Positions 25,784 to 63,948 of a stretch of 64,000 bases of DNA are shown here, piece by piece. The notes below the pieces were generated by a model. It had not been told where the DNA came from. It worked only from the letters and a program-made list of their open reading frames with translations, and ran no database searches. Location: IMG/VR virus record IMGVR_UViG_3300004369_000007, one strand, 5' to 3'. The DNA comes from an uncultured virus (IMG/VR IMGVR_UViG_3300004369_000007). Lineage: Duplodnaviria > Heunggongvirae > Uroviricota > Caudoviricetes. A program made the translations under genes and the position numbers. Numbering within the stretch: position 1 is the stretch's first letter; every line of letters starts with the position of its first letter.

Positions 25784-26663
25784 GGCTTGCTTGTATTTTT
25801 CCCGTCCGTATGGACGCTATATCCCACCCCATCGCCTTGAAAATGGGTTCGGCCTTCTTGACTACTTGTTGAGAATAGAAGTCCCAATCGGGACTACAAC
25901 CCTCAAAATCCTCGTAAGTTATGCCTGATAAGTATTCAACTTCTCGCTTTTCTTGAGTTAAAGGATGGGTATAGAAATCATTTACCCTCTTAACTTTTAA
26001 GAAGAGATAAGAGTCATCAAAATTAGTGTTTTTCTTTTCCCATGCGTATAAAACACCAGCAATTCCTGAACCGATAGTAGGTTTCTTTCCTTCAAGAGTA
26101 GTAAATTCTTTTGTTGGCGTAGCGCACTTTTCGCAAACTTTGTGCGGTAAAGTAGAACAGTCTCTTAAATTGTATGTAGTATTTTTACAATTGGGGCATT
26201 TAACAGTAAATCTGTTTTTCCTAAGACGGCTTCTCTTGATAATAGAAGCAAGAGGAATTTCACCTTTACTTACTGCACTAAAAGTTTCATGTAAATACTT
26301 AGTAATTTCCGCATAAGATTTTTGTTCAACCCACATTTTAAGAGTATTAGTTTGCACTTCTTTTGCTAATTTAGTTTCACTAACACGCTTTGCAGTAAAA
26401 CCAGTCATACTAAACTTTGGCTTATCTAACCATTCTCCATCTTCCCAAGAAACTAGTCCAGCGTTGCGGTTCTTTGTTGTTCCAACACCCAAAGCAGAAT
26501 AGTATTTCTCAAATTCAAGAACAACAGGATGATTTTCTAGTCCCATTACATTAGGAAAATGCTCTCGCACTTTTGCCTCAATCTGCTTAATTGCAGATTG
26601 AGCAGTTTCAACAGAATCAATTTGCACATAAATTGAATCTGTGTGTCCATATACTACTTTCAT
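25767..26663 (-). CDS. polB: Family B DNA polymerase, C-terminal half (motif C YGHTDS, thumb, Zn insert)
   Basis: VVYGHTDSIYV, LEFEK.Y, TKNRNAG, CPNC...CEKC insert. Confidence 0.85.
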   Translation of the reverse strand: MKVVYGHTDSIYVQIDSVETAQSAIKQIEAKVREHFPNVMGLENHPVVLEFEKYYSALGVGTTKNRNAGLVSWEDGEWLDKPKFSMTGFTAKRVSETKLAKEVQTNTLKMWVEQKSYAEITKYLHETFSAVSKGEIPLASIIKRSRLRKNRFTVKCPNCKNTTYNLRDCSTLPHKVCEKCATPTKEFTTLEGKKPTIGSGIAGVLYAWEKKNTNFDDSYLFLKVKRVNDFYTHPLTQEKREVEYLSGITYEDFEGCSPDWDFYSQQVVKKAEPIFKAMGWDIASIRTGKIQASLDEWW

Positions 26664-26667
26664 ACAA

Positions 26668-26862
26668 TCACCTTAGAGTAAAAAGCATACCAACAGGTTG
26701 CTTTTGCATTTTAGCAACTTCCTCTTGGAGTTCCATAATCTGGCTCTTAATTAATTGGAGAGAACGAAGTTTGATTTCCATATCCTCTAATTCGTTTTCT
26801 AAATGTTCTTTCATTTTCTTAATTTCTTTTAATGCTTCAAAATAAAATTCTTCATCTCTCAT
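26668..26862 (-). CDS. Small coiled-coil protein
   Basis: 64-aa ORF with heptad pattern. Confidence 0.5.
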   Translation of the reverse strand: MRDEEFYFEALKEIKKMKEHLENELEDMEIKLRSLQLIKSQIMELQEEVAKMQKQPVGMLFTLR

Positions 26863-26987
26863 AATACCACCACCAGTAGCGTAATGATAGTCGCAATATT
26901 TACTATATTAACCATCATCAAAATCTTGTTGCTTCTATTTATCATGGCTAGCAACTCTTCCAATAATTCATTCGTTCTGTCCATCAT
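26859..26987 (-). CDS. Small membrane-anchored protein (42 aa; not in ORF track)
   Basis: MMDRTNELLEELLAMINRSNKILMMVNIVNIATIITLLVVVL; stop overlaps next start. Confidence 0.5.
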   Translation of the reverse strand: MMDRTNELLEELLAMINRSNKILMMVNIVNIATIITLLVVVL

Positions 26988-27138
26988 CACTATTAACACC
27001 TTGTTCAACTTCTATAATGATAGCATGACGCTTTAAATTATTCATCATTTGAAATAACTCTTTTACCTCTTGTAAAGTAATATCCCAAGTTTCTTCCGTA
27101 TCATATGATACTTTAATAGTTACATATTTAGTTTTCAT
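26968..27138 (-). CDS. Small hypothetical protein (56 aa; not in ORF track)
   Basis: MKTKYVTIKVSYDTEETWDITLQEVKELF... Confidence 0.45.
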   Translation of the reverse strand: MKTKYVTIKVSYDTEETWDITLQEVKELFQMMNNLKRHAIIIEVEQGVNSDDGQNE

Positions 27139-27215
27139 TTTTCCATCTCCATTGTCTATAACAATTCCAGCAATATCCGTGATTTGGGTGAACGGCTTTT
27201 CTACTTTTACATCTT

Positions 27216-27983
27216 TTACATTCCTTCATAATCATCCCAACTCCATATTTCGTCAAGGTTGTATCTGTTTTTATTTTTGTTTTTTTGGCTTAAAGTTATT
27301 TTTTGACCTTTACCTATGTTATCAACAAGCCACATCATGCTTGATTTCTGGCTATTAATTTCAATATACTTATGAAGTTCTTTTGCAGAATCCTGCAAAT
27401 CCTTTAGGTTGGCCTTTGCTTGTTTAATATTTAATTCAAGGTTATTTTTTTCTCTAAACATAGAAGCATTACGCATTTTATGAATTTTTTGAAAAATAAA
27501 AGGATATATTTCATTAAAAATAAAATAAGGATTTCCTAATTCCTTTTCGCCCCAATCTTTGATATTAAACTCTACCATATTCTTACCAAAAGTTTCTTTC
27601 TTTTTTTCAGAAGATTCTCCATGATTCCAGACTTCAATTGCTAAATATTCCCCTCTTAAATGTCCTTTAGTCCATCTAATACAAACATCAGGTATTAGTC
27701 CTAACAATTTTTTTTCCATCTCTATGGAGGCTGATTTTAGGTAAAGGGAGTCTTGATTCATCAAGAGCATTTCATAAATTAATTCTTTAACATAAAGATG
27801 CTTTTGTCCTTCCCCACTACAAGTAAATTCGCCTTTATGAGCAAAGTGGTGAGTTCGGATTTCGCCCTTTTTAGGAATCATTTTTCCGTTGCATTCAAGG
27901 CAAGTGTATTCAGCACCCCTTAATGCTTTATTAATGGTGATTCTGTTATCACCATCTAAGGCTACCCAAAATTGAATACTCAA
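27216..27983 (-). CDS. CoiA-like Zn finger plus PD-(D/E)XK nuclease
   Basis: YTCLECNG...HHFAHK...C..E..KH, IPDV, LAIEV. Confidence 0.65.
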   Translation of the reverse strand: MSIQFWVALDGDNRITINKALRGAEYTCLECNGKMIPKKGEIRTHHFAHKGEFTCSGEGQKHLYVKELIYEMLLMNQDSLYLKSASIEMEKKLLGLIPDVCIRWTKGHLRGEYLAIEVWNHGESSEKKKETFGKNMVEFNIKDWGEKELGNPYFIFNEIYPFIFQKIHKMRNASMFREKNNLELNIKQAKANLKDLQDSAKELHKYIEINSQKSSMMWLVDNIGKGQKITLSQKNKNKNRYNLDEIWSWDDYEGM

Positions 27984-29668
27984 AGTTTCATCTCCTTTGC
28001 TGCAAATGCGGCTAATCTAATTGCTTCTCTTGCGCTGGCCGTGATACTTGCGGCTAAATCAACATCAGCCCAACTGAATCCTTGAAAGGCAACAATACCA
28101 TAGAAAGAAGCCATTAATCTCTTAACAGCCATTTGATTGTTATACCACTTCGCATATTCGCCATTGTCCGTTTCTCTCGCCTCTCGCATCAGTCGTTTAT
28201 ATTCGTTGCGGAGTTCCTTCAACTCAAGAACGGCTCTCGGCAACAAGCCAAGTTTATCTGTTTTGTAGTATAGCATTTGTTTATGTTTAACATCGCTAAA
28301 ATCTCTCGGAGTTAGAATATTAACTCCAAACTCAGTTGGCTCAACAGATTTTGTCTCCCAAGAAATGTTTCGTGCAATCATCATTGAAGGATATAGACCA
28401 GCAAAATCAAAAGCCGCTACATTGAGGTGCAAACCATTGGTTCCTTCGCTTAGTGGGTCGTAAATCATAGCACCTTCATATTCTTGTCTTTCATCTACTT
28501 TACTACCTGTTGGTGCTTTCCAATCAGCATTTCGCATAAAGTAAATAGAACCCATATGAGAAGCATAGAAACAAGCATCAAATGGTGCTTTCAGTAGTCG
28601 TTGAAGAGAAATAATTGCTTCACTACAAAAGTTCTTCTCATCAATTTCAACCATCAATTCAACATCTCTTAAAGCATATTGAAGATAAGTCGCTGTATCT
28701 TCTAACCAAGCCCTGCGATAAAATTCATTGGTGTCTGGAAACTTTTCAGATACTAACTTCTTTTTACCAAGAACCGTTTCACCGATATAGTCAAGAGAAA
28801 GAGAAGGTAATGTTCCTCTTTGAGAATCATTCCATTGTCTTTCAAATGCTAAGTCTAAAGACAGGGTAATTCTTCCACCAATGGGTTGTTCAATTGGAGA
28901 AAAACCTTTTTCCGAATATTTCGGAGAAAAACCTTCTTTCATAGAATTAAATCCCTTGACTGTTGCCGTTGGTGAAATAATGCGTGGGTCAAGACCCACC
29001 GCAGAAGCCCGTTCAAATAACTTTGGTAAATCAGCAAAATGACCGAACCAAGCAATTAACATATCGGGGTCTTTAATAATCACGGTGTTCATAAAATCCT
29101 CAATCATTTCTTTTTCTGATGAGAAAAAACGCACAGAACAGTTAGAAGGTGGGCAAATATCTCCTTCTAAAATAACATCAGCCAAATCTTTTTTAGTGTC
29201 ATCTTTAGGCCACCACACCCATTGAATGTATTCTTCGTCGTAATTATCATAAACTACAATTGTAGTTAATTGGTCGTGATAGTCTCCACCTTGCGCCCAT
29301 TCCATATCCCAATACCACTTACGCAGTTTATATTCGGGCATTTCATCTAACTCATCAACGCAATAACGAAAATGATAAGGAACATCTGCTTCATAGGTTT
29401 CCCTAAACTCATTTTTAGCATTACTAATATCTTGTGCTGACTCAACAAATACTTTTTTCAAAGGTTGTCCTGTAAGATTAACCCAATCGCCACGCTGATA
29501 CTCAAAATCCCTAGTAAGATATTTAGTAGGTTTATAGTGAGGTCGCTCAGGTTCATCTTGTAAAACATAGAAGTAAGGTCTAAAGGGAACAATTTCATGT
29601 TTTTTCTCTCCGTTTTCTCTCCAAGACTTATATATTCTCATTCCATCATTCATTTTACTAATTATCAT
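27980..29668 (-). CDS. polB: Family B DNA polymerase, N-terminal half (exonuclease, motifs A and B)
   Basis: YWDMEW, YALRDV, FDFAGLYPS, KRLMASFYG, ITASARE. Confidence 0.9.
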   Translation of the reverse strand: MIISKMNDGMRIYKSWRENGEKKHEIVPFRPYFYVLQDEPERPHYKPTKYLTRDFEYQRGDWVNLTGQPLKKVFVESAQDISNAKNEFRETYEADVPYHFRYCVDELDEMPEYKLRKWYWDMEWAQGGDYHDQLTTIVVYDNYDEEYIQWVWWPKDDTKKDLADVILEGDICPPSNCSVRFFSSEKEMIEDFMNTVIIKDPDMLIAWFGHFADLPKLFERASAVGLDPRIISPTATVKGFNSMKEGFSPKYSEKGFSPIEQPIGGRITLSLDLAFERQWNDSQRGTLPSLSLDYIGETVLGKKKLVSEKFPDTNEFYRRAWLEDTATYLQYALRDVELMVEIDEKNFCSEAIISLQRLLKAPFDACFYASHMGSIYFMRNADWKAPTGSKVDERQEYEGAMIYDPLSEGTNGLHLNVAAFDFAGLYPSMMIARNISWETKSVEPTEFGVNILTPRDFSDVKHKQMLYYKTDKLGLLPRAVLELKELRNEYKRLMREARETDNGEYAKWYNNQMAVKRLMASFYGIVAFQGFSWADVDLAASITASAREAIRLAAFAAKEMKL

Positions 29669-43811: not shown

Positions 43812-44144
43812 TTAAAACGATTTACCATGCATATATTCACGGCTTTGATTGTATTCAATCTTAGCGAGAATCGCACCCGCTATATCTAAATCTTTACCAA
43901 AAGCATAATCCATAATACGAATTACTGCGTCGGCTAATTCTTCTTCAAGATTACTATATTCAATAATCTTTGATGAAGAAGGATTACCTTCTCTCAAGGC
44001 TTCAAGTGCTTCACTAATTTCAGCATGAATTAAAGCCATGCGCTCGCCATCATTAGGCTTTTCTTTCCAAAAGCCATGATTAACTGCATTTGTATATACT
44101 TTCTTTGCTATTCTATTCCATTCCTTTTCAAACATTTTATTCAC
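43812..44144 (-). CDS. MazG-like NTP pyrophosphohydrolase
   Basis: EISEALEA, EEELAD..IR, KIEYNQSR. Confidence 0.8.
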   Translation of the reverse strand: MNKMFEKEWNRIAKKVYTNAVNHGFWKEKPNDGERMALIHAEISEALEALREGNPSSSKIIEYSNLEEELADAVIRIMDYAFGKDLDIAGAILAKIEYNQSREYMHGKSF

Positions 44145-44997
44145 CTAGTTCACTTAATTGTTTTCCTTTGACTTGATTCGCTAATTCTAATCCAATCATA
44201 CTGAGAATCTCTTTGGTTTGTCTGCGAATATTAAATCTAGAAAACCCAGTTTTCTTTGTAATCAATACTTGTGTAATTTGAGTATTCACAGTCATTTTTG
44301 CAGTAATCCAAATAATACAAGCATAATAAGAACGACCTCTGTTAAATGTATTCTGTTCAACCTTTGATTCAAAAAATTCAAGCACTTTAATTGCTTGACG
44401 CTTGAATACTAAATCATCAGTAATTTTATTGAGAGTTTGTTCAAGTAAATACTGAGGATTGATAGGCATATAATTTGCGCTATTACGATAGGTTTGGTTA
44501 ATTTTTCTAACCAAACGCTTTACTACTTTTAAGTTAGGTTCAAACTCACCCATTACTTCCTTAAATGAATAAGGTGTTCCGTTTTCCCTTAACGCATAAA
44601 AAACAACTGCGGTTGCTCTTGCTTCGTATTCACTTCGGCCAAATATGCCTTTGTTGTTTAAGTCCATGTAAAGTTTCTCAACTCTTTCATTTAACTTAAG
44701 ATTAGGTGCTACATTTGCTAATACCATGTTACAATGAACAAGTCCATTTTGCACAGATTTCGGAATTACACTATTTTTACCAAACTTATTAAATTTATAA
44801 GAACCTTTTCCAGTAATAACTGAGCCTAATTTCCCTTTGTCTGCTGAATGTTGTAGATTACCGCCAGTATCTAAAAGATGGACGGTTTCTTCAAACATTT
44901 CTTGCACAAGAACAAGACCACATTCATTACAGATTCTTTCACCTTGAATTTCATCAAAGTAATTATCTTTGCTACCACATTCATCGCAATTCATCAT
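44137..44997 (-). CDS. tfb: Transcription factor B (TFB/TFIIB)-like
   Basis: Zn ribbon CDECGS...GERICNECGLV plus two cyclin-like repeats (GRS..A). Confidence 0.8.
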   Translation of the reverse strand: MMNCDECGSKDNYFDEIQGERICNECGLVLVQEMFEETVHLLDTGGNLQHSADKGKLGSVITGKGSYKFNKFGKNSVIPKSVQNGLVHCNMVLANVAPNLKLNERVEKLYMDLNNKGIFGRSEYEARATAVVFYALRENGTPYSFKEVMGEFEPNLKVVKRLVRKINQTYRNSANYMPINPQYLLEQTLNKITDDLVFKRQAIKVLEFFESKVEQNTFNRGRSYYACIIWITAKMTVNTQITQVLITKKTGFSRFNIRRQTKEILSMIGLELANQVKGKQLSELGE

Positions 44998-46141
44998 TAT
45001 CAACTCTATATTCATTGGGTTGAGCAGTAAGATACCGCCTAATTGTATTCACTATTTTAATTGTGTGGAAGTCGTTTAATAAAGCCAATGCCCGTGTTGC
45101 GAATTGGTCGCCCAAAGGAGAACCTTCAGCCATATTATCAATACAAATTGGGCCTCTCCAATTTGGAGAAGAAACAACTTTTTTAGTTTTGCCGCTTTCT
45201 TCATCTTTAAATTCTTCAAAAATCGGTTGCCAGACATAAGTTGAAACCATTTGAATGCCTGACTTATATCGGTTGTTGGTTAGCATCCAATCATATTCTT
45301 TACCACGAATATAAATAGTGGTAAGAACATTATCTTCATACTCAGCAGAAAGACGACCTTTGTATTGAACTAGCATATCTGCAACCAATTCCAATGCTCT
45401 AGCATCAACAATATCTTGCGTTCTGTTTTGCATCAAAAAGGCAATCATAACCTTTAACTCAGAACTGCTGGGTTCACGACCAATTAATTTAGTGTAAAGA
45501 CTCTTAGGAGAAAGATACTTCCAAGAGCCTCTTTTCTTTCCATGAAGATAAAAATTACAATATGAATCTAATTGCTTAGGAGTAATTTCGCCCCAAATAC
45601 CATCACTAATTTCCATAGCCAGCATTTTCTCATCAATTTGAACAACATTTAAACGAACATCTTGTTTTTCAAAATCAACAAAGAAATGAAAAGGTGCTCG
45701 GTTTTCAATACAATATAGAACATTTTCAGGTAAATTAAGAGTTGAGTAAAGAGAAGAAAGAAGTTTAGCACCATCTTTTTCAAAGCAAGCCTTGAAAGTA
45801 ATTCTAGCCAAAGCAGAACAAATGGTTGCTAAACTATAAGATTTACCGTTCAAGTGGTAGCGAATGCCTTCTCTTGAAAGAACAACGGGACATTGTTCAA
45901 TAAACACAATATGGTGAAATTCTTCAGTAAAATGTATTTGCTGTCTTAGACTATGATACCGATTTCTTCTTCTTGGAGAAATAATGTCTCTCCAGAATGC
46001 TTCTAAACCTGCTTGAACAGGGTCTTTTGCGTTTCTTATATAAGCAATGCTTTTCATTTCTGGAAATGAAAAAGTTTCGCAAGTAATATTACAGATATAA
46101 TATTTATTTGAATCGTCGGGAACTGCTATATTTAATTTCAT
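44981..46141 (-). CDS. Hypothetical protein with C-terminal putative E2 (UBC)-like domain
   Basis: SPNWRGPICIDNM resembles the E2 active site HPN..G.ICLD; near E1 and JAB genes. Confidence 0.5.
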   Translation of the reverse strand: MKLNIAVPDDSNKYYICNITCETFSFPEMKSIAYIRNAKDPVQAGLEAFWRDIISPRRRNRYHSLRQQIHFTEEFHHIVFIEQCPVVLSREGIRYHLNGKSYSLATICSALARITFKACFEKDGAKLLSSLYSTLNLPENVLYCIENRAPFHFFVDFEKQDVRLNVVQIDEKMLAMEISDGIWGEITPKQLDSYCNFYLHGKKRGSWKYLSPKSLYTKLIGREPSSSELKVMIAFLMQNRTQDIVDARALELVADMLVQYKGRLSAEYEDNVLTTIYIRGKEYDWMLTNNRYKSGIQMVSTYVWQPIFEEFKDEESGKTKKVVSSPNWRGPICIDNMAEGSPLGDQFATRALALLNDFHTIKIVNTIRRYLTAQPNEYRVDNDELR

Positions 46142-56475: not shown

Positions 56476-56588
56476 TTTATTACCTCCTTAAAATTAGTGA
56501 ATAGGTGGGGAAGGGAACAATACCGATTACTCGGCATTTTACTTCTTAGTAGCCCCTTTGTTCAACCTTCCCCATGTAAAATTGAAAG

Positions 56589-56672
56589 TGCTGAGAGCAG
56601 GATTTGAACCTGCGAACCGTTTAGGACAGGAGTTTAAGCCCTGCGCTTTTAACCAAACTCAGCCATCTCAGC
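56589..56672 (-). tRNA. tRNA-Leu(UAA)
   Basis: GCTGAGA/TCTCAGC acceptor stem, loop CTTAAAC, long variable arm, GGTTCAAATCC. Confidence 0.9.
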
Positions 56673-56810
56673 ATTTGTATTTGTTCAATCAAAGCCACAC
56701 CAATTTCAATTTACAAAAGTGAAACTGGGTCGTTTGCGACTGTTGAAAGACAACCCCACCCTCGGAGGGCGTATAAGGTTCGGCGCAGGGGGTTGCTCAA
56801 GCGAATAGAC

Positions 56811-57068
56811 CTAAAACCCTGCGTTTTGATAAAAAAAGTATAAAAGCCACAGGCTAACGCCTATAACAACAGTTCCCCAAAATAACTTCAAACGAACATT
56901 ATTCGGAGGATTGCACTTTGGGTTTAAACAATAATGACTAGTTGAAATAACTCCGTGATGCACATAAGACTCAAGAAGATGATTACTGTCTTTTGGAATA
57001 TCAGTTCCGCAAGATTGACAGATTAAATCCTCTTTGGCCTTAACATACACTTCTTCTACTAAACGCAT
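56811..57068 (-). CDS. Zn-binding protein with C-terminal TM helix
   Basis: CQSCG...HYCLNPKC; hydrophobic tail. Confidence 0.55.
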   Translation of the reverse strand: MRLVEEVYVKAKEDLICQSCGTDIPKDSNHLLESYVHHGVISTSHYCLNPKCNPPNNVRLKLFWGTVVIGVSLWLLYFFYQNAGF

Positions 57069-57212
57069 TTAATCACCCAAAGGCGGGGGAGAGCCTTGAG
57101 GTATCATAAGGCTCTCCCCCATTGGAAAAGGGGAGAATAGGAGGCCTTAGCCCCCTATTCCCCGTTGTTCAGGTCAATGACCTGTAATGGTGCTGGATTG
57201 AAGTTTAAAACT

Positions 57213-57686
57213 TCAAAGTTCGTCCGATTCGCCTAAAAGGGAATCAACCGAACCATCCCAAGAACCGTCCTTGAACATATTGCTCAAGTTTGTTCGGGTT
57301 CTCTTGACAACAGCAGAAGCGTAATCTTCTGCGCCATCAAAGGCTCCACCGCCAGATTTGATGTGCTTCATCGTAATTGCACCGATAATAGCGTCGTGGT
57401 TGTAGTAAGCAATAGATGCTTCTTCAACAACGCCACAAATTCGGTCAATAGCGACACGAACAGATGCAGGAACTGCGCTCTTTTGGCCACGGCGGAACGG
57501 GGTTCCATCACGGCCACGCAAAAGGGCTTTCAAAGCACCTTCGGCGGCAGTTCGCTCATCAGGGTTGTTCGTCCCGATTTGCAGGTTCAATTCAACAACT
57601 TGGCGCAATCCTGCGTCAAGCGTCTGGTCGGCTTCAAGGTATTCGTTCACTTCAATGACAAGTGAATCCCATGTGGTGTTATCCAT
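57213..57686 (-). CDS. Unknown protein, paralog family A copy 1
   Basis: Shares W, RRG.., GG.F, WDG with 59865 and 60966 genes; own promoter and downstream hairpins. Confidence 0.65.
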   Translation of the reverse strand: MDNTTWDSLVIEVNEYLEADQTLDAGLRQVVELNLQIGTNNPDERTAAEGALKALLRGRDGTPFRRGQKSAVPASVRVAIDRICGVVEEASIAYYNHDAIIGAITMKHIKSGGGAFDGAEDYASAVVKRTRTNLSNMFKDGSWDGSVDSLLGESDEL

Positions 57687-57736
57687 ATTATCTACTTCCT
57701 CCCCTTTGCGGGGTTGTTTTCAATAGTTGTCTTGAG

Positions 57737-57753
57737 GTATATAAAGGAGTCCA
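57737..57753 (-). promoter_or_regulatory. TATA-type promoter at head of the - strand module
   Basis: Identical to the 17-mer at 49236-49252. Confidence 0.6.
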
Positions 57754-57939
57754 GAAATGCCTCCGAATGCCCTCCCTTGAGGGAATTACTAACCTTTTCT
57801 TAAGACCTGCGGTGTTCCATAGCACCTTTTTTCACTTCTGTTTTTTAACTGAAATGATAAGTAATTCGTTTTGTTGAATCAAATAGATTTTATTTACAAC
57901 AATAGTTTGCCCATTGAAATAACTTTGATGGCCTTGTGC

Positions 57940-58245
57940 ATGAGACTGTCTCGCTTGTTGTCTCAATGTGAGACGGTGAGGTTATGCAACACAACCCCTT
58001 AGAACCTTGCGGAAACCCGTAAAAATAAGTTGTCTCATCTCGTCTCATCAAAAAAGGGATATATTTCTCTCTCTTTACCCCATAGAATATAAGGGGTTAT
58101 GTAAGAGAAGAAGAAGAAGATAGATAGATAGATGAGATAGATGAGATAATGAGAAATATATAATAAATCTATACTTATGTTGCATAACCTTGATGATTCT
58201 TTCATGTCTTGTCTCGTCTCATACCCTCCCGACCATGAGACAACC
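57940..58245. repeat. Nested inverted repeats with TGAGAC/GTCTCA units and GAA/GATA runs (candidate origin)
   Basis: AGGTTATGCAACA (57979-57991) vs TGTTGCATAACCT (58178-58190); many GTCTC/GAGAC units; non-coding. Confidence 0.55.
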
Positions 58246-58464
58246 ACTTTAGTTTAGTATAATACTAATATTGAATATTAGAATATGAATATGAATTAAT
58301 ATAACTACAATTGAGGAACACCCTGTCAAATCTGACGGATTTTTGGGGGCTGAAAATTATCCCTATTTCAGTTGCATTGACTATGGCTAAATAAGGAGAT
58401 TCTTCTTTCTTTGATGTTTTCAAAACCATATGGTCATGCTTTGTTTTTTGACCCCGAAGGGCGG

Positions 58465-58707
58465 CTAAGCCATATCATCTTGGATTTTGGATAATATCGT
58501 GTTCATCATATCCATCATCGCTTGATGAGTCATAATCTCAGCAAATCCAGCCCATGACTGTTCAAAGGTGATAATAGCAATCATAGCATGAGGTTCGTCA
58601 AAATAATGCATATCGGTGTTAATGGCTTCGTAAAATTGGTCTGCAATAAAAGGCTTAAGGACTTTAGGAAAGGTTTCGCATAGTAGGTTCACAATCTCTC
58701 TTGACAT
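58465..58707 (-). CDS. Cassette 1 hypothetical protein (80 aa, probably leaderless)
   Basis: MSREIVNLL...; CCCTTCGGGG hairpin after stop. Confidence 0.55.
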   Translation of the reverse strand: MSREIVNLLCETFPKVLKPFIADQFYEAINTDMHYFDEPHAMIAIITFEQSWAGFAEIMTHQAMMDMMNTILSKIQDDMA

Positions 58708-58795
58708 GGTTCTAACATAGAATATCTTATTGTTTAGGGTATTACAAAGCATTACCATATGGTCGTAACTTTGAGTAACGGCCCGAAGGCCGCCA

Positions 58796-58921
58796 TTAAC
58801 GGCAATCGGGGCAAATCCAAACTATTCGCAATTCCTTAACCCAAGTATCATTTCCATATTGGTCGTAAAAACAAACCGTTCCGTCAGCATTACATTCTTC
58901 ACAATACATTGTTTCTTCCAT
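58796..58921 (-). CDS. Cassette 2 Zn-finger microprotein (41 aa; not in ORF track)
   Basis: MEETMYCEECNADGTVCFYDQYGNDTWVKELRIVWICPDCR; GGCCTTCGGGCC hairpin after stop. Confidence 0.6.
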   Translation of the reverse strand: MEETMYCEECNADGTVCFYDQYGNDTWVKELRIVWICPDCR

Positions 58922-59029
58922 GCTTAACCTAAAAATGTGCATATTCATTGAGGTATTACCAAAGCACTACCATATGGTTGATGATTGCTTTGCATATTAA
59001 CAACCTTATCTGTTATTCAATGGGTTTTA

Positions 59030-59360
59030 TTGCTTCGGGGGTCTTGCCCTCGGAGGGGATTCATATTCCCTTGGTTGATTGGCCATATACACCAATCGGA
59101 AACAAAGCCGAAACACAGAGCAGTAAAGCGAGAAAGTAACAAGTAATCATTTATTGGCGCGCCAATTCTTGATGAAGGAACAAAGTATCGGTGTGAGTCT
59201 CATATGCATGGAGTAGGCGGCGTTTCTCATATTCACATTAAACCCCCCGTTTGAGAGCAACTGATGTAGGTAACGGCTAAGGTTTAGAGAGCCATAAACG
59301 GACATATAGCATACGAAAAAGATTTACTGCTTTCCCTGTCCGTTTATGGCTCGCCCATTT
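59030..59360 (+). ncRNA. Cassette 3 candidate non-coding RNA
   Basis: Same promoter and leader as cassettes 5 and 7 but no convincing ORF; perfect 16-bp stem 59289-59304/59337-59352. Confidence 0.35.
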
Positions 59361-59439
59361 AGATAAGGTAATGATTAAGTGCAAAGCATAATCATTACCA
59401 TATGGTCATGCTTTGTCTTTAATTGGCCCGAAGGCCGTT

Positions 59440-59688
59440 TTACCGCTTAACGCGGCCATTTGTGATGTCGTCAATGAATTGCATGATTTTCGGGATGACA
59501 GCCTCCAATTCCGAGCCACCCTTAATGGAGAAATTGACTCGGTAGAAATCCGTATTCATTCGGCAATAAAGCCCCGTGTCCCTAATAAAGCCGTAAATCT
59601 CACCCATGTAGTTAATAGCCTCCGAACAGGTTTTAATGTTGATGCTGGCGATTCCAGTAATCAAATTGCGCGTATAACTTGCTTTCAT
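59440..59688 (-). CDS. Cassette 4 hypothetical protein (82 aa)
   Basis: CAACCCTATA box just over 20 nt upstream of ATG; GGCCTTCGGGCC hairpin after stop. Confidence 0.55.
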   Translation of the reverse strand: MKASYTRNLITGIASINIKTCSEAINYMGEIYGFIRDTGLYCRMNTDFYRVNFSIKGGSELEAVIPKIMQFIDDITNGRVKR

Positions 59689-59864
59689 GCCTTATACATG
59701 GATAAGAGGCTATAGGGTTGCATCTCCATTGAGAAACAAAGTATGCAACCATATGGTTGATTATCGCTTTGCGTGGAATCAACCTTATACGCTATTGCGT
59801 GGGTTAGGTTGCTTCAAGGGGGGAAAAACACTTGAAGACACTTTTACAAACGAGGTGAAAAAAC

Positions 59865-60389
59865 ATGAAGATGAAAAATTGGACATTGAACACGAACAAG
59901 GTTCGGGCGTGGGCTGAAAATCAACCCAAATCCGACAATTTGAACGCTGTGTTGCTATCGCTCACTTTGGGCGACAATGCGGCTTCGGACGAACTTAGAA
60001 GCACCTATTGGACGGCTATTCGTTCAATTGGCTCCACTATGGAGGGTTTTCCTGCGGCACGACGAGGGCGGGAATCAACGCTTTCGGAGGAACAAGAACT
60101 TGTTTTGGCGACTGTGGAGGAAAGCGTGGCTCATGCTATTGCTCAAATCCCTACTGACTATCAAAGCATGATTCTTTCCGTTATCGTGCCTCATGGACGA
60201 ACTGGTGGCGTTTATGAGACTTTTGGCGATTTGGTGGATTCTTTCCGTTCAAAGGCTCATTCCTACATGGTTAAGGCCATTAAGGAAGACCGTTGGGATG
60301 GACTATCCGTTGATGACAACGGAGTTCCCCAAATCACGCCACCACCCGTTAATTCGGGTGATTCGGAAGGAGGTTCCGAGGAAGAGTAA
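59865..60389 (+). CDS. Cassette 5 protein, paralog family A copy 2
   Basis: GAGGTG RBS; LRSTYWTAIRSIGS, RRGRES, PHGRTGG, RWDG shared with 60966. Confidence 0.75.
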   Translation: MKMKNWTLNTNKVRAWAENQPKSDNLNAVLLSLTLGDNAASDELRSTYWTAIRSIGSTMEGFPAARRGRESTLSEEQELVLATVEESVAHAIAQIPTDYQSMILSVIVPHGRTGGVYETFGDLVDSFRSKAHSYMVKAIKEDRWDGLSVDDNGVPQITPPPVNSGDSEGGSEEE

Positions 60390-60503
60390 GTCTGCAAGGT
60401 TTTCCCCCCTTGTGGCCCCTTTCGGGGGGTTAATGCAAAGCCTAACCATATGGTTGCATACTTTGGTAATAAAACCCTATATTTGCCTATTAAGGGGTTA
60501 ATC

Positions 60504-60725
60504 ATGTTCCAAAGAAGGCACTACCAAAAGATGGCTGAAACCCTTGCAACCGTTCATAACATTGACAATATGCCCATAGAGGCGGTTAGTGTTATGTTTT
60601 CTCGTGATAATCCCAATTTTAGCGAGGAACGGTTCTTTGAGGCTTTTCGCAAGGAATATGAATGGGTATGGGGAGAAACCTATCCATTTGCCCTTAGAGG
60701 CCGCTATGAGCGTTTAAACGCTTGA
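60504..60725 (+). CDS. Cassette 6 hypothetical protein (73 aa)
   Basis: MFQRRHY...DNPNFSEERFFEA; AAACCCTATA box upstream. Confidence 0.6.
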   Translation: MFQRRHYQKMAETLATVHNIDNMPIEAVSVMFSRDNPNFSEERFFEAFRKEYEWVWGETYPFALRGRYERLNA

Positions 60726-60965
60726 ATAAACAACTGGCGAGTGGGTTTTGATTGTTTCCCACAGGTAATGGAGCGTCGGACAGGGTTAAAGTCCAAATAG
60801 CCGAAAAATAAAACAATCCCCGTTGGGTATTAACAAAGCATTACCATATGGTTGTTTTTCGCTTTGCGAGTGTAACATAAAAACAACCTTATAGGTTATT
60901 GTGAGGTTGAGGTTGCTTCGGGGGGAAAACGGAGCATCAAAACCTTTATTGGAGGATTGATTACC

Positions 60966-61469
60966 ATGAATGCAACAAATTGGATAAAGAACACAAACGC
61001 CGTTCAAGCGTGGCTTGAGCGTGAAGATAGGGGAGATGTCGGTAATGCGATTTCTCTTTCTATTACCCTTGGAAATGCGACGGATAGCGATGATTTGCGC
61101 TCCACCTATTGGACAGCAATTCGCTCAATTGGAAGTCCTTATGACGATTTCCCAGTCGCCCGCCGAGGCCGAGAATCATCTTTGCCCGAAGAAGTAGAGT
61201 TGTCTGCGACTTCTGTGAAGAATGCGGTCATTACTGCCTTTGCGGGTATTTCTAACGCTGACTTGATTACTACCGTTATTCTCCCTCACGGGCGAACAGG
61301 CGGAGCATTTGAGAACATTGAGGCACTTGCCGAGGCTATGGGCAAAAAGGCCTATGATGCTCTCGTTAAGGGCTATAAGGAAGGTCGTTGGGATGGAACC
61401 ATGAACGGTGAAATCCCAGCATTGACCCCACCTGCGGCTAAAGACGAAGGAGGTCAAGAAGAGGAATGA
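60966..61469 (+). CDS. Cassette 7 protein, paralog family A copy 3
   Basis: GGAGG RBS; identical blocks with 59865; CCCCACTTCGGTGGGG hairpin at 61491-61506. Confidence 0.75.
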   Translation: MNATNWIKNTNAVQAWLEREDRGDVGNAISLSITLGNATDSDDLRSTYWTAIRSIGSPYDDFPVARRGRESSLPEEVELSATSVKNAVITAFAGISNADLITTVILPHGRTGGAFENIEALAEAMGKKAYDALVKGYKEGRWDGTMNGEIPALTPPAAKDEGGQEEE

Positions 61470-61877
61470 TGTTCCCAATTCCCCCCGTAGCCCCACTTCG
61501 GTGGGGTTCCGTTAAATAACTGGCAAAGCCAACCATATGGTGTTGAAGTTTTTAATAACTACTATTTAGAGATAATAGAGTTATGATTATATTCGTCATA
61601 AAAGAGCGTAAACAAACATTTTGTAGTTACCAATAGCGTTCTATAGAGAACTGTTAAGGAAGATGAGAATAAAACAATAGATGAAAATGGTAGTTATTAA
61701 CAACTTTTCACGCATTCATAATCTACAACCATATGGCTTTGTTTCAAAATTTTTTATTTATGTAGAGTTAAATGAAATCGCTCTAAAGGGCCTATTTTAA
61801 AGCATTAACTTTAAATAAAGCAAGGTTAAAGCCGCCAGTATTATAGGCTATGGCTTCCTCCCATAACATGATACTGT

Positions 61878-62120
61878 ATGTCTGCTGAACAAGAGGCTAT
61901 TTCTCATTTAAATGAGATATTCACCATTATCAAAGAAACCCTTGAAGAAGCAAAGGAAAACAGAAAATTTGCACGAGAATTGTCAAATAATGAGGAAAGA
62001 GCACTTACTGAAATAACAAATAAATTAAAACAAGTTCGCTCAAATTTAGACAAATACTTAAAATCATTCCGTGTGCAAACTACATTAACTCAATTTGGCG
62101 TTGGAAATACTGAACAATAA
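61878..62120 (+). CDS. Coiled-coil hypothetical protein
   Basis: 80 aa, ends QTTLTQF (PIP-box-like). Confidence 0.55.
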   Translation: MSAEQEAISHLNEIFTIIKETLEEAKENRKFARELSNNEERALTEITNKLKQVRSNLDKYLKSFRVQTTLTQFGVGNTEQ

Positions 62121-62355
62121 ACAATATTATTAACATAATTAATTTAATTATTATTATTCGCATTTTTATAACAACATCTTTACACGGCGGCCAAATTGAT
62201 TATCTTTAAACGAACAACTTTAAATGAATAACTTTAAATGAACAAATTTAAATGAATAAATTTTTATCCTGTTTATACAATTCATAAAATTTAAATGAGA
62301 ACGCAAGTGCCGAAAAAATTCCGAGTCATTTTTTGAGAAAATTAAGGTGATTAAC

Positions 62356-62607
62356 ATGAGTTGGGAAGATATTGTTAAAAAAGAATACAATAATGCGTAT
62401 GATAGATTAAGAGACGAATTACAAGCCAACGGTAATTCTCCCGAAGGTAAAACTGAGATTTTATTAGGTTTGTTTGAACAAATGGGCATTTTACATGGAA
62501 ATATGAATCCTTTTGAGGCAGCGAGAACAGTTTTAAATCAAATTAGTTTTTTAATAAAAGAGGAACAAATTGGTCTTATGATTGATGAAGATGAGAGGGG
62601 TTTTTAA
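62356..62607 (+). CDS. W-x-x-I-x-K leader family protein (MSWEDIVK)
   Basis: GGTGA RBS, shared leader. Confidence 0.6.
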   Translation: MSWEDIVKKEYNNAYDRLRDELQANGNSPEGKTEILLGLFEQMGILHGNMNPFEAARTVLNQISFLIKEEQIGLMIDEDERGF

Positions 62608-62655
62608 ACCGCCAAAAAAATTCCGAGCCATTTTTTGAGAAAAAAAGAGTTGATT

Positions 62656-62865
62656 ATGATGAATTGGGCAAGTATTATTAAAAGAGACCCTCCCACTTGT
62701 TTTAACTGTAATGTTTTTATGACTCCTCAAGAAACACGCTTATATGCAGATAGATGTTCTCTTTGTAATAGTGCAATTGAATATTCTAAAAGAACAGGAA
62801 AAGAAATGCCGAATACTTATCAGCCTTCAAGACAATATGGCGAAGAAGGTTATACGGGGAAATAA
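62656..62865 (+). CDS. W-x-x-I-x-K leader family Zn-finger protein (MNWASIIK)
   Basis: CFNC...CSLC. Confidence 0.6.
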   Translation: MMNWASIIKRDPPTCFNCNVFMTPQETRLYADRCSLCNSAIEYSKRTGKEMPNTYQPSRQYGEEGYTGK

Positions 62866-62903
62866 ATTCCGAGTCAAATTTTGAGAAAAAAGAGTTGATT
62901 AAG

Positions 62904-63275
62904 ATGAAATGGGAAGATATACTTAAAGATGAAGGATTTAGAGAAGAACACAAAGAACGATTAGGTTCAATGCGTTCTTCTAAACAACCAATGTTTGATG
63001 AGCGAGATAATCCAGCAGATATGGTGTCTGAGATGGTGTTTAAAATTATTGATTTTGACAAACTAGAACGGTTTCTTCAAATGTCTAAAGCCCACTACAT
63101 GAGGGCTATGGATGTTAAAAACTTCACTCCTCCGAGTTTATCCCAAAATGATGAAAATAAATTAATAAATGGTCTTGAATTAATTTTGAATAAAGAAATT
63201 GCTTCCTATGTTGAAGAAGCCAGAAAAAATCAAGGTGAAAACCCCTTACCTAAATACGACCCAAAGGGTATTTGA
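62904..63275 (+). CDS. W-x-x-I-x-K leader family protein (MKWEDILK)
   Basis: Shared leader. Confidence 0.6.
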   Translation: MKWEDILKDEGFREEHKERLGSMRSSKQPMFDERDNPADMVSEMVFKIIDFDKLERFLQMSKAHYMRAMDVKNFTPPSLSQNDENKLINGLELILNKEIASYVEEARKNQGENPLPKYDPKGI

Positions 63276-63285
63276 GGTGATTAAC

Positions 63286-63513
63286 ATGAATTGGACACAT
63301 ATTATTAAAAATGAAGATATGGGCAATTGGGAAGACGAAACGGGCGAACTAACTGATGAACAGTTTGATAAATTACTTAAGTTGTGGAGAATGATTAAAG
63401 AATCATGGGATTTTTTTCAAGATAATTCGGAACTTCACTCAATTAGAGAACTAGATGATGTTGATACTTATTTACAAAAAGCGGCGAGTATTGTTTTTGA
63501 TTTAACAGGGTGA
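63286..63513 (+). CDS. W-x-x-I-x-K leader family protein (MNWTHIIK)
   Basis: GAGGTGA RBS, shared leader. Confidence 0.6.
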   Translation: MNWTHIIKNEDMGNWEDETGELTDEQFDKLLKLWRMIKESWDFFQDNSELHSIRELDDVDTYLQKAASIVFDLTG

Positions 63514-63547
63514 AAAAATTCCGCCAAAAATTTTTGGAGAAATTAAC

Positions 63548-63655
63548 ATGACAAGATGCATTTATTTAGATTCATGGTTTGACTCTCAATCAAAGCGTTT
63601 AGACGAAGAAGAACAAAAACAAAAGAAAGACTTAATTACAGGTGAGAGAAAATGA
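63548..63655 (+). CDS. Small hypothetical peptide (35 aa; not in ORF track)
   Basis: MTRCIYLDSWFDSQSKRLDEEE...; ATGA overlap with next gene. Confidence 0.45.
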   Translation: MTRCIYLDSWFDSQSKRLDEEEQKQKKDLITGERK

Positions 63656-63948
63656 GTTGGAAAGATATTATTAAAAACGAAGATTTCGGCTATTGGCTAA
63701 ATGAAGAAACGGGCGAACCCATTCGTAATTTTGACTATGGCGGAAGTTTGAACAAAAAGTTTAAACCAAAGTGTCAAAACGGCCCTTGTTTAAGAATTGC
63801 TAATGGGACTGATGGAATTGGTTTTTGTATGCCTTGTGAAGATGATGCAAGCGATAATCGTTTAACTGACCCTAAAAGCCCATATACAAGGGAGAACCAA
63901 ATGAAAAACCCTACCCTCCCTAACATTTTTGTAGGTGATGAAAAATGA
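63652..63948 (+). CDS. W-x-x-I-x-K leader family Cys-containing protein (MSWKDIIK)
   Basis: Shared leader; CQNGPC...CMPC. Confidence 0.6.
   Translation: MSWKDIIKNEDFGYWLNEETGEPIRNFDYGGSLNKKFKPKCQNGPCLRIANGTDGIGFCMPCEDDASDNRLTDPKSPYTRENQMKNPTLPNIFVGDEK

What the first reader, a model, noticed from the sequence alone, without database searches (positions are those of the whole stretch)
58425..61737. Integron-like array of self-contained gene cassettes joined at the palindrome ACCATATGGT
Seen: eight exact copies (58425, 58754, 58969, 59397, 59748, 60445, 60843, 61532) and one variant (61728), spaced 196-697 bp apart. Internal sites read CAAAG-N-ACCATATGGT-N-CTTTG, so each cassette has inverted ends, while the outermost exact sites carry only the inward arm. 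Each of the seven intervals holds one unit: a promoter-like box (CAACC[CT]TAT or similar), one gene (or candidate RNA) and, in five, a TTCG-loop hairpin right after the stop. Orientation is mixed (-,-,+,-,+,+,+). The promoter-side arm TGCATACTTTG is identical in oppositely oriented cassettes 4 and 6. Inference: a site-specific cassette capture, inversion or shuffling system for early accessory genes; a symmetric core would explain both orientations. It recalls integron attC arrays and T4-type promoter/stem-loop modules but matches neither. I saw no recombinase in the window, so repressor operators remain an alternative.
Basis: partly seen in the sequence, partly recalled or inferred. Interest (0 to 1): 0.9.

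Follow-up and report, generated by a model that had tools for sequence, protein, structure and literature searches.

The report
Palindrome-jointed gene cassettes, archaeal virus
A marine archaeal virus keeps its small unknown-function genes as separate units joined by one conserved palindrome flanked by hairpins, and related viruses have swapped, gained and lost these units at those joints.

Summary
Observation confirmed. There are eight exact ACCATATGGT in 58425-61541 against 0.04 expected, and none elsewhere in the 64 kb.

The window is a magrovirus-like tailed virus of marine archaea, not a bacteriophage.

The same joint, CAAAG-N-ACCATATGGT-N-CTTTG, forms one array per genome in 104 IMG/VR contigs. 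It is present in 45 of 46 relatives picked by a neighbouring helicase alone.

The 307 cassettes fall into 230 sequence clusters.

Homology between relatives breaks at or within 12 nt of the core. A salt-marsh population lacks exactly one core-to-core unit.

New anatomy: the CTTTG/CAAAG "arms" are C-TTT-G loops of hairpins (GGT-x...x'-ACC) with compensatory changes.

No tyrosine or serine recombinase was found.

Best reading: a composite boundary-plus-promoter module that also serves as the recombination seam. It is an archaeal-virus counterpart of the T4 PeSL elements, not an integron. A dedicated structure-specific recombination system is not excluded.

The parts
58425..58434 (.). Junction core S1, the left end of the array. 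Only the inward (right) CTTTG arm is present.
58435..58753 (-). Cassette 1: a small ORFan (ORF 58465-58758; the likely start is near 58707). ACCCTAAAC box at about 58732-58740. GC-rich TTCG hairpin at the stop, about 58450-58465.
   Evidence: no Pfam family over cut-off
58754..58763 (.). Junction core S2. The 92%-identical collinear match to G001 ends exactly here.
58764..58968 (-). Cassette 2: a 50-aa zinc-ribbon-like ORFan (58796-58948). It is absent from G001, where one core stands for S2 and S3 together.
   Evidence: In one search, an X5 contig skips 58795-58952.
58969..58978 (.). Junction core S3, a divergent junction with promoters on both sides.
58979..59396 (+). Cassette 3: CAACCTTATC box at 59001-59010 and a structured leader, but no ORF conserved in relatives. 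Candidate non-coding RNA. The window copy lacks about 245 nt that relatives have.
   Evidence: No Rfam family.
59397..59406 (.). Junction core S4, a convergent junction. Its left arm is an 11-bp-stem hairpin (z -3.0).
59407..59747 (-). Cassette 4: an 82-aa ORFan (59440-59688). CAACCCTATA box at 59711-59720, 26 nt before the ATG. The unit is missing, core to core, in contigs of runs X19 and X5.
   Evidence: In one search, the joint 59396>59748 skips 351 with 10 shared letters.
59748..59757 (.). Junction core S5, a divergent junction with twin hairpins on both sides. As DNA the MFE is -21.3 kcal/mol and z is -4.9.
59758..60444 (+). Cassette 5: AACCTTATA box at 59781-59789, a leader with a hairpin and a GAGG motif, and a 174-aa gene (59865-60389) of the array-associated all-alpha family with an acidic tail. 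92.5% identical to the G001 cassette.
60445..60454 (.). Junction core S6, a tandem junction.
60455..60842 (+). Cassette 6: AACCCTATA box at 60473-60481, 26 nt before the ATG at 60504. A 73-aa ORFan (60504-60725).
60843..60852 (.). Junction core S7, a tandem junction. Its right arm is a 10-bp-stem hairpin (z -2.65).
60853..61531 (+). Cassette 7: AACCTTATA box at 60885-60893, and a 167-aa paralogue (60966-61469) of the cassette 5 gene.
61532..61541 (.). Junction core S8, the last exact core. Only the inward (left) CAAAG arm is present.
61542..61727 (.). AT-rich non-coding spacer between S8 and the array-end site. It is conserved with G001.
61728..61770 (+). Conserved array-end site CAACCATATGGCTTTG followed by AAAATTTTTTATTT, upstream of the conserved rightward genes that start at 61878.
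57213..57686 (-). Third paralogue of the array-associated family, just outside the array. It has a TTTATATA box and no palindrome.

Best explanation
The stretch is the hyperplastic small-gene region of a magrovirus-like tailed virus of marine Poseidoniales archaea.

Each cassette is its own transcription unit. It has an archaeal BRE/TATA-like box (ACC-YTATA), which lies 26-29 nt before the ATG in leaderless units or ahead of a structured leader. It carries a small ORFan or an RNA, and ends in a GC-rich UUCG-type hairpin.

Cassettes are joined by a composite, symmetric boundary element. The 10-bp palindrome ACC-ATAT-GGT supplies the feet of two flanking stem-loops (GGT-x ... x'-ACC), each capped by C-TTT-G. 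On the promoter side the stem runs straight into the TATA-like box.

The element works like the promoter/stem-loop modules (PeSLs) of T4-type phages. It separates and drives neighbouring units, and the exact core is probably bound by a dimeric factor. Because it is the only sequence shared by all cassettes, it is also where general or short-homology recombination joins unrelated cassettes, between co-infecting relatives or within one genome. The outcomes are gain, loss, replacement, reordering and, rarely, inversion.

Shown here: the anatomy, the conservation, the covariation, the breakpoints and the population polymorphism.

Inferred: the transcriptional roles, protein binding, and the recombination pathway.
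For: Virus identity:
- Split PolB, ERCC4+HhH nuclease, RFC-like ATPase, ATP ligase, chaperonin, RNR and a TFIIB zinc ribbon.
- tRNA-Leu, tRNA-Arg and tRNA-Lys.
- These match the group B/B1 magrovirus description (passages of PMC5434244).

One array per genome:
- G001 is two related genomes in a row, each with one array.
- Arrays occur in 104 IMG/VR contigs.
- They occur in 45 of 46 helicase-ascertained relatives with at least 3 kb upstream and 49-95% identity, and in 0 of 21 distant helicase relatives.

Core conservation: 390 exact against 44 one-mismatch sites.

Content is hypervariable:
- 307 cassettes fall into 230 nucleotide clusters.
- 228 unique ORFs fall into 97 families, and only 1 of the 97 has a Pfam family.

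Breakpoints:
- The window-G001 collinearity ends at 58763.
- In 26 junction pairs with unrelated neighbours, all break 0-12 nt beyond the core: 10 at 0-1, 9 at 2-6, 7 at 7-12.
- Of 198 HSP ends, 35% lie within 20 nt of a core against 8% at random.

Population data:
- A joint 59396>59748 with 10 shared letters occurs in contigs of two runs.
- Contigs end at cores and continue into other neighbours.

Hairpins:
- Perfect stems of 6 bp or more occur in 23% of 860 half-sites, against 3.5% when partners are swapped.
- CTTTG lies in the loop in 175 of 198 stems.
- 5 of 9 pairs show compensatory changes.
- On 150 model-aligned hairpins, 91.5% of cells pair against 75.6% shuffled (0 of 500 shuffles as high), and 28-52% when the partners are slid.

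Promoter box:
- It lies 26 nt before the ATG in cassettes 4 and 6.
- In 34 of 111 boxes the distance to the ATG is 24-30 nt.
- The same AACCTTATA stands upstream of tRNA-Leu without a palindrome.

Crossovers in the CTTTG loop as well as in the core fit homology-driven exchange.

Precedents:
- PeSLs (PMC2839356 abstract and section 13; PMC4122927 abstract).
- A TATA-plus-inverted-repeat motif in halovirus HGTV-1 (passage of PMC3950731).
Against: - No transcript ends were mapped. Only assembled contigs were available, so promoter, terminator and insulator roles are inferences.
- The hairpins are not universal. A stem span of 6 or more occurs in 57% of 141 promoter-side half-sites and 33% of 136 3'-side half-sites. 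Only 4 of 8 window junctions fold clearly better than shuffles.
- The loose TATA-like pattern is also found in 47 (sense) and 72 (antisense) of 206 3' regions, against 111 of 206 5' regions.
- A regulatory role does not by itself explain why the core stands at convergent junctions, 9 of 107.
- It also does not explain why a 10-bp sequence 28 nt upstream of the TATA-like box is kept exact.
- No binding protein was identified.
- Archaeal termination is known to depend on T-runs, which are lacking here (established knowledge, not tested).
- One relative (L321) has small genes in the same place without the joints.
- The alignment used for one search was fitted to the structure.
Confidence: 0.55

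Rival explanations
1. A dedicated, structure-directed site-specific recombination system, integron-like or HUH-like. An unrecognised viral (or host) enzyme reads the twin hairpins and cuts in or beside ATAT. Cassettes are excised and inserted at any core, and the symmetric core allows either orientation.
For: - The stems vary in sequence but conserve structure next to invariant 7-bp elements (ATATGGT / ACCWTAT), which recalls attC architecture.
- The 10-bp core is exact across viruses whose helicases are only 54% identical.
- One unit is lost exactly, core to core.
- One cassette is inverted in place.
- Outer sites carry only the inward arm, as expected if the arms travel with cassettes.
- A conserved arm-less end site could act like attI.
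- A protein family of unknown fold is present in 37 of 39 arrays.
Against: - No tyrosine or serine recombinase, transposase or HUH domain was found in any scan.
- 7 of 26 breakpoints lie in the far CTTTG loop rather than in the core.
- Homologous cassettes keep their orientation in all 16 clusters seen in two or more oriented arrays.
- Tandem junctions dominate, 77 of 107.
- Hairpins are weak or absent at many half-sites.
Confidence: 0.2
2. Operators only. The palindrome is the binding site of a dimeric regulator that switches the whole accessory region on or off. The hairpins and the breakpoints are side effects.
For: - It is a perfect 10-bp palindrome with W flanks, kept exact.
- It lies a median 28 nt upstream of the TATA-like box.
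- It is confined to one region of the genome.
- The virus encodes a TFB-like protein and a Myb-like protein.
Against: - Cores stand at convergent junctions and at 3' ends without promoters.
- The spacing to the promoter box varies: the 5th-95th percentile is 19-47 nt.
- Covariation in the stems shows selection on pairing, which an operator does not need.
- Breakpoints are enriched at cores.
Confidence: 0.15
3. RNA-level processing sites. Long transcripts across the array are cut at structures formed by the self-complementary cores and hairpins, in the manner of rRNA processing stems or archaeal bulge-helix-bulge sites.
For: - Any two cores could pair as a 10-bp duplex (this follows from the sequence).
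- G-T type mismatches in stems outnumber A-C type 63 to 28 on the strand read from core into cassette.
- A contig from an RNA library runs across a core. This may be DNA carry-over.
Against: - Cassettes have their own promoter boxes and lie in both orientations.
- No bulge-helix-bulge geometry was seen, and there was no Rfam match.
- Contigs cannot show RNA ends.
Confidence: 0.05

Closest known systems
PeSLs (promoter-early stem-loops) of T4-type phages (Arbiol et al. 2010, PMC2839356; Comeau et al. 2014, PMC4122927)
   Same: Both are short composite motifs that join a promoter and a stem-loop. Both sit in front of ORFans in hyperplastic regions. In both, indels and replacements between close relatives break in the motif, and each small gene is its own unit.
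   Different: - The host domain and the promoter type differ: an archaeal TATA-like box here, sigma-70 there.
- Here an invariant 10-bp palindrome forms the seam.
- Here hairpins flank it on both sides and at 3' ends too.
- Here there is one array per genome rather than many dispersed motifs.
- Promoter and terminator activity and mini-circles were shown for PeSLs and were not tested here.
Conserved TATA-like plus inverted-repeat motif before ORFs of halovirus HGTV-1. Described in PMC3950731, which cites Sencilo et al. 2013; that paper is not held and was not seen.
   Same: It is an archaeal tailed virus related to magroviruses. Many small ORFs are preceded by one conserved motif that its authors likened to PeSLs.
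   Different: The sequence differs. HGTV-1 has only 4 scattered CCATATGG in 144 kb. Its own palindrome ACTTAAGT (28 sites) lies about 27-30 nt before the ATGs, so it is the TATA-like box itself. No seam between cassettes was examined there.
Integron cassette arrays (attC sites, IntI)
   Same: Both are arrays of small, highly diverse cassettes. In both, boundary sites conserve structure more than sequence, next to short invariant inverted cores.
   Different: - There is no IntI or any recombinase here.
- Each cassette has a hairpin at both ends rather than one attC.
- Cassettes here carry promoters and lie in both orientations.
- The core sequence is unrelated to RYYYAAC/GTTRRRY.
- The system sits in a virus of archaea.

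Membership tests
Integron | IntI-type tyrosine recombinase gene beside the array | tested here: not met
   PF00589 six-frame search of G001 gave 0 hits at E<=1, while the control matched in 14 of 14 genomes. No hit in the Pfam scans of window and G001 ORFs.
Integron | attC sites with RYYYAAC / GTTRRRY core sites, one per cassette at its 3' end | tested here: not met
   The joints read ACCATATGGT with hairpins at both cassette ends.
Integron | Mostly promoterless cassettes in one orientation, read from a common promoter | tested here: not met
   The cassettes have their own ACC-YTATA boxes, and 30 of 107 junctions are not tandem.
PeSL-type mobile regulatory cassettes | Repeated intergenic motif that joins a promoter and a stem-loop, concentrated in a hyperplastic ORFan region | tested here: met
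   (hairpin plus TATA-like box). (ORFan diversity). Promoter activity itself was not tested.
PeSL-type mobile regulatory cassettes | Differences between close relatives break in the motif | tested here: met
PeSL-type mobile regulatory cassettes | Sigma-70 early promoter of a T4-type phage | tested here: not met
   This is an archaeal virus with TATA-like boxes. It works like a PeSL but is not a member.
PeSL-type mobile regulatory cassettes | Mini-circles formed by exchange between neighbouring motifs | not testable with these tools
   Only assembled contigs were on hand.
MITE / IS with terminal inverted repeats | The two ends of one element resemble each other more than the ends of other elements | tested here: not met
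   Mean identity of the two ends is 0.349, against 0.312 for other cassettes, over 266 cassettes.
MITE / IS with terminal inverted repeats | Transposase in the genome | tested here: not met
   No transposase family appeared. Unknown folds cannot be excluded.
Magroviruses (viruses of Marine Group II archaea), group B/B1-like | About 90-100 kb tailed-virus genome with an archaeal-type replisome, split PolB, GroEL-type chaperonin, RNR, tRNA-Leu and tRNA-Arg | tested here: met
   compared with passages of PMC5434244. No phylogeny was made.

The most novel reading that the evidence does not exclude
The twin hairpins and the ATAT centre are the substrate of a new, recombinase-family-independent cassette exchange machine of archaeal viruses. 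It may be run by the all-alpha, acidic-tailed protein family present in 37 of 39 arrays. It would excise and insert ORFan cassettes as circles or hairpin-capped pieces, making it a viral counterpart of the integron that arose independently.
Probability: 0.15. Interest if true: 0.92.

Novelty: new variant of a known kind. Interest (0 to 1): 0.7.

Why it matters
Magroviruses are described as among the most abundant viruses of the surface ocean (PMC5434244), yet their hosts are uncultured and most of their genes are unknown.

This element marks exactly where their fast-turning accessory genes sit and how they are packaged. It gives a 10-bp handle to pull such arrays out of any metagenome. It also offers a testable case of modular gene exchange in archaeal viruses.

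The stems vary in sequence but covary, and they sit next to an invariant palindrome. The same logic underlies integron attC sites, but no recombinase is present here. Two outcomes are possible. Either short structured repeats are enough to organise a gene-cassette market, or an unknown enzyme awaits discovery.

Term searches of four magrovirus papers and a full-text search for the motif (52 papers, the 20 listed being primer and vector uses) found no description of it.

Tried and rejected
- blastn of 57000-62200 against deposited phage genomes gave no match.
- The window's own assembly is not held, so G001 was used instead.
- The search of earlier findings returned nothing.
- The array-associated protein family gave nothing: no Pfam family; no Foldseek PDB match at E<=0.001; in the VIA wide search the best Z was 7.7 over a generic three-helix bundle, below the stated noise level for helical models; ESM Atlas gave no usable hit. 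Its function stays open.
- Rfam had no family for the joints or for cassette 3.
- In host and other cellular genomes, the full joint pattern occurs in 43 stretches of 185,579 species genomes. Forty-one are single sites in unrelated bacteria. The only array is on a 14.7-kb contig binned as Altibacter, held as two overlapping stretches, and is probably a misbinned virus. None is in Poseidoniales.
- Distant helicase relatives (34-39% identity; 18 of the 21 were looked at) show no analogous palindrome arrays.
- Cassette-specific terminal inverted repeats are not seen.
- From the laid runs, parts of the stretch without contig cover, and contig depths, were not used. Contigs from RNA libraries were not taken as proof of transcription.
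- The Sencilo et al. 2013 paper on HGTV-1 could not be read. The motif was examined in the genome record instead.
- One accession recalled from memory turned out to be HCTV-1, not HGTV-1.
- Complex prediction was not used, because it cannot take DNA.


Full report
**1.

ACCATATGGT occurs eight times, all between 58425 and 61541. The expectation is 0.04, and no shuffle of 100 reached 8. With one mismatch allowed the only extra site in the region is ACCATATGGC at 61728. Two isolated one-mismatch sites elsewhere are at chance level.

The six internal sites read CAAAG-N-core-N-CTTTG. The two outer sites carry only the inward arm. TGCATACTTTG is shared by cassettes 4 and 6. The seven intervals hold one small unit each, in orientation -,-,+,-,+,+,+.

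**2. What genome this is.**

The window is not a bacteriophage of the usual kind. Pfam finds:
- a family-B DNA polymerase split by a CoiA-like nuclease gene;
- an ERCC4 plus helix-hairpin-helix nuclease;
- a PD-(D/E)XK nuclease;
- an RFC-like ATPase;
- an ATP-dependent ligase with the archaeo-eukaryotic N-domain;
- a Cpn60-family chaperonin;
- a class II-type ribonucleotide reductase;
- a 291-aa protein with a TFIIB zinc ribbon (PHROGs).

All the best solved-structure matches of that 291-aa protein are TFIIB/TFB (E = 0.0028). There are tRNA-Leu, tRNA-Arg and tRNA-Lys genes.

This is the gene set described for group B/B1 magroviruses, which are tailed viruses of about 100 kb assigned to Marine Group II (Poseidoniales) archaea (passages of PMC5434244).

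The nearest held record, G001 (184,733 bp), is two related genomes in a row. The window matches its first half at 92-94% identity and its second half at 65-73%. The 14 cores of G001 form two clusters about 94 kb apart, one per genome. So there is one array per genome. It lies between the replication module (UvrD-like helicase, tRNA-Leu) and a run of small rightward genes.

**3. How widespread it is.**

By my count of the listing they lie in 104 distinct contigs, many of them 92-99 kb long.

A second sample was drawn without reference to the palindrome, through the neighbouring helicase.
- Of 46 relatives with 49-95% helicase identity and at least 3 kb upstream, 45 have 2-11 exact cores upstream of the helicase, and none has any downstream.
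- The 21 distant helicase relatives (34-39% identity) have none.
- The one exception (L321) keeps the array-end site and about nine small genes, but lacks the joints.

In 185,579 prokaryote species genomes the pattern gives 43 stretches. Forty-one are single sites in unrelated bacteria. The only array is on a 14.7-kb contig binned as Altibacter, held as two overlapping stretches, and is probably viral. None is in Poseidoniales. The element is therefore a property of this virus clade.

**4. Conservation against diversity.**

In the merged pieces, arrays hold 390 exact cores and 44 one-mismatch sites. Of those 44, 32 differ only at the first or last base, so the hard core is CCATATGG.

A conserved variant, CAACCATATGGCTTTG followed by AAAATTTTTTATTT, closes arrays on the side of the rightward genes. 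The window's 61728 site is this end site.

The content between cores is very diverse.
- 307 cassettes (median 516 bp) fall into 230 nucleotide clusters.
- 228 unique cassette ORFs of 50 aa or more fall into 97 families.
- Only one of the 97 representatives has a Pfam family: Kyano_Gp96, known from cyanophages.

One family stands out. It is a roughly 170-aa all-alpha protein with an acidic tail, and the window has three copies (59865-60389, 60966-61469, 57213-57686).
- It makes up 59 of the 228 ORFs.
- It is present in or beside 37 of 39 arrays with five or more cores.
- Its confident model (pLDDT 87) has no convincing structural relative.

**5. The joints are the seams of exchange.**

*Window against G001.* The 92% collinear match ends exactly at the core at 58754-58763.
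- Cassette 2 is absent from G001, where one core stands for two.
- Cassette 4 has no nucleotide match.
- Cassette 5 is 92.5% identical.
- G001 has other units in between.

*Across pieces.* Arrays are mosaics. Order differs in several cases, for example clusters 33 and 34 in M012 against M013, and cluster 4 at position 1 against position 3.

*Clean junction pairs.* I took 26 junction pairs where the cassette is homologous and the neighbour is clearly unrelated. Homology ends 0-1 nt beyond the core in 10 pairs, 2-6 nt in 9, and 7-12 nt in 7; this last group runs through the far CTTTG. This set was selected for good register next to the core.

*Unselected test.* Of 198 independent HSP ends inside arrays, 35% lie within 20 nt of a core centre against 8% of random positions, and 14% within 5 nt against 2%.

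*Orientation is mostly kept.* All 16 clusters seen in two or more oriented arrays agree in orientation, though some of these arrays are near-duplicates. One cassette (cluster 41) is 90% identical but inverted between two contigs that otherwise share orientation.

*Public runs.* Contigs of two salt-marsh runs, one DNA and one from an RNA library, join 59396 to 59748 with ten letters fitting both sides. That is a loss of exactly cassette 4, core to core. Other contigs start or stop at cores, or continue after a core into a different, G001-type neighbour. Because the joined form stands in a DNA run, it is a DNA arrangement. The contigs say nothing firm about transcription.

**6. New anatomy: hairpins.**

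Read from the core into a cassette, a half-site is GGT-x-(n)C-TTT-G(n)-x'-ACC, where x and x' differ between cassettes but are complementary.
- So CTTTG/CAAAG is a C:G-closed triloop, not a free-standing arm.
- On the promoter side, ACC is followed by TTATA or CTATA.

Evidence for selection on pairing:
- Perfect stems of 6 bp or more occur in 23% of 860 unique half-sites, against 3.5% when partners are swapped between sites. For 5 bp or more the figures are 41% against 11%.
- CTTTG lies in the loop in 175 of 198 such stems.
- RNAalifold on 20 promoter-side sites of the conserved family gives 9 pairs, 5 of them with compensatory changes.
- A covariance model found 183 matches in 327 kb.
- On the best 150 matches, 91.5% of cells pair against 75.6% in shuffles (0 of 500 as high). 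There are 180 double-change cells against 61.6 in shuffles. Slid controls pair at 28-52%. The caveat is that this alignment was fitted to the model.

The hairpins are not universal.
- A stem span of 6 or more occurs in 57% of 141 promoter-side half-sites and 33% of 136 3'-side half-sites.
- Of the eight window junctions folded as DNA, four beat shuffles clearly (z -2.65 to -4.9; S5 shows both hairpins) and four do not.
- The two ends of one cassette are not specially alike: 0.349 against 0.312 identity. So these are not transposon-type terminal repeats.

**7. Promoters.**

In cassettes 4 and 6 the TATA of ACC-CTATA lies 26 nt before the ATG. Cassettes 1 and 2 have looser boxes 29 nt before it.

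Across 206 cassettes with one clear ORF:
- a loose box pattern is found in 111 5' regions, against 47 (sense) or 72 (antisense) 3' regions;
- 34 of the 111 lie 24-30 nt before the ATG.

This spacing is what established knowledge of archaeal TATA boxes predicts for leaderless mRNAs. The reading is inference, not measurement.

The paralogue cassettes and cassette 3 have about 80-nt leaders with a hairpin and a GAGG-type motif. The same AACCTTATA stands upstream of tRNA-Leu without any palindrome, and the paralogue outside the array has a TTTATATA box and no palindrome. So the promoter box works independently of the core.

Junction types among 107 unique classified junctions are 77 tandem, 21 divergent and 9 convergent. 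The core is therefore neither purely promoter-linked nor purely terminator-linked.

**8. No known recombinase.**

Pfam scans covered 87 window ORFs, 54 ORFs covering the rest of the nearest genome and 97 cassette families. None shows an integrase, resolvase, transposase or HUH domain. Six-frame searches of G001 with PF00589 and PF00239 found nothing at E<=1, while the controls matched. The virus does carry general recombination and repair nucleases and a UvrD-like helicase.

**9. Interpretation.**

The best fit is a composite boundary-and-promoter module that doubles as the recombination seam. It is the archaeal-virus counterpart of the PeSLs of T4-type phages.

In PeSLs, a promoter fused to a stem-loop precedes ORFans in hyperplastic regions, and recombination between motifs shuffles modules (PMC2839356 abstract and section 13; PMC4122927 abstract).

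A PeSL-like TATA-plus-inverted-repeat motif was already noted in halovirus HGTV-1 (passage of PMC3950731). In that genome the repeated palindrome is ACTTAAGT at TATA distance from the ATGs, and CCATATGG is not repeated.

Three features are new here:
- the invariant palindromic seam;
- the twin, covarying hairpins at both ends of each cassette;
- the single, positionally fixed array across a whole clade of abundant ocean viruses.

Crossovers in both the core and the CTTTG loop, and the rarity of inversion, favour homology-driven exchange over a fixed-site recombinase.

However, a 10-bp sequence stays exact across viruses whose helicases are only 54% identical, and this calls for a sequence-specific reader that I could not identify. 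A dedicated structure-specific system therefore remains a live rival, at about 0.2.

I found no description of the element by term searches in four magrovirus papers or by a full-text search for the motif. Supplements of those papers were not examined.

Noticed in passing
window 44137-45012 (-): A 291-aa protein with a TFIIB-type zinc ribbon. All its best solved-structure matches are TFIIB/TFB over most of its length, but weakly (E 0.0028 to 0.3). It is a virus-encoded TFB-like factor that could direct host RNA polymerase to the ACC-YTATA boxes. 'TFB' and 'TFIIB' do not occur in the main text of PMC5434244.
   Followed up: partly
window 58979-59396; relatives L015 8077-8688 and cluster-2 cassettes: Cassette 3 has the promoter box and leader of the paralogue family, but no ORF conserved among four relatives. 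It has long, strongly conserved blocks, and the window copy lacks about 245 nt. It is a candidate non-coding RNA of about 550-670 nt without an Rfam family.
   Followed up: partly
G001 (IMG/VR record of 184,733 bp): The record rated 100% complete is two related genomes of about 92-95 kb joined in one contig, not one 185-kb genome. The window matches one half at 92-94% and the other at 65-73%.
   Followed up: yes
window 25767-29665 (-): The family-B DNA polymerase is split into two ORFs, with a 254-aa CoiA-N-domain nuclease gene (27216-27980) between them. This is the split described for group B1 magroviruses. The intervening gene looks like a homing-type insertion.
   Followed up: no
window 62347-63948 (+): Five tandem small genes whose products begin with a shared M-x-W-x-[DSH]-I-[IVL]-K motif. 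They form a second, palindrome-free paralogue cluster right of the array. None has a Pfam family.
   Followed up: no
window 62197-62263 and 58106-58154: A 14-nt unit (CTTTAAATGAACAA) is repeated about four times just right of the array, and an AGAT-type microsatellite lies in the non-coding stretch left of it. Both are iteron-like and could belong to an origin or a regulatory region.
   Followed up: no
window 56772-56780 (-), upstream of tRNA-Leu 56588-56672: The same AACCTTATA box as in the cassettes stands about 100 nt upstream of the tRNA-Leu gene, without a palindrome.
   Followed up: partly
L025 4106-4510 and 17 further cassette ORFs: The second largest cassette family (18 members) matches Pfam Kyano_Gp96 (E 5e-18), a family named from T4-like cyanophages. 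This suggests gene sharing between bacterial and archaeal viruses of the ocean.
   Followed up: no
L270/L271 (NZ_NZTP01000027.1, 14,756 bp, binned as Altibacter MAG): This is the only cellular-genome record with an array (five joints). It is most likely a magrovirus contig misplaced in a bacterial bin.
   Followed up: no
L321 2463-8400: One relative (helicase 68% identical) keeps the array-end site, the flanking paralogue and about nine small same-strand genes, but has no palindromic joints between them.
   Followed up: partly
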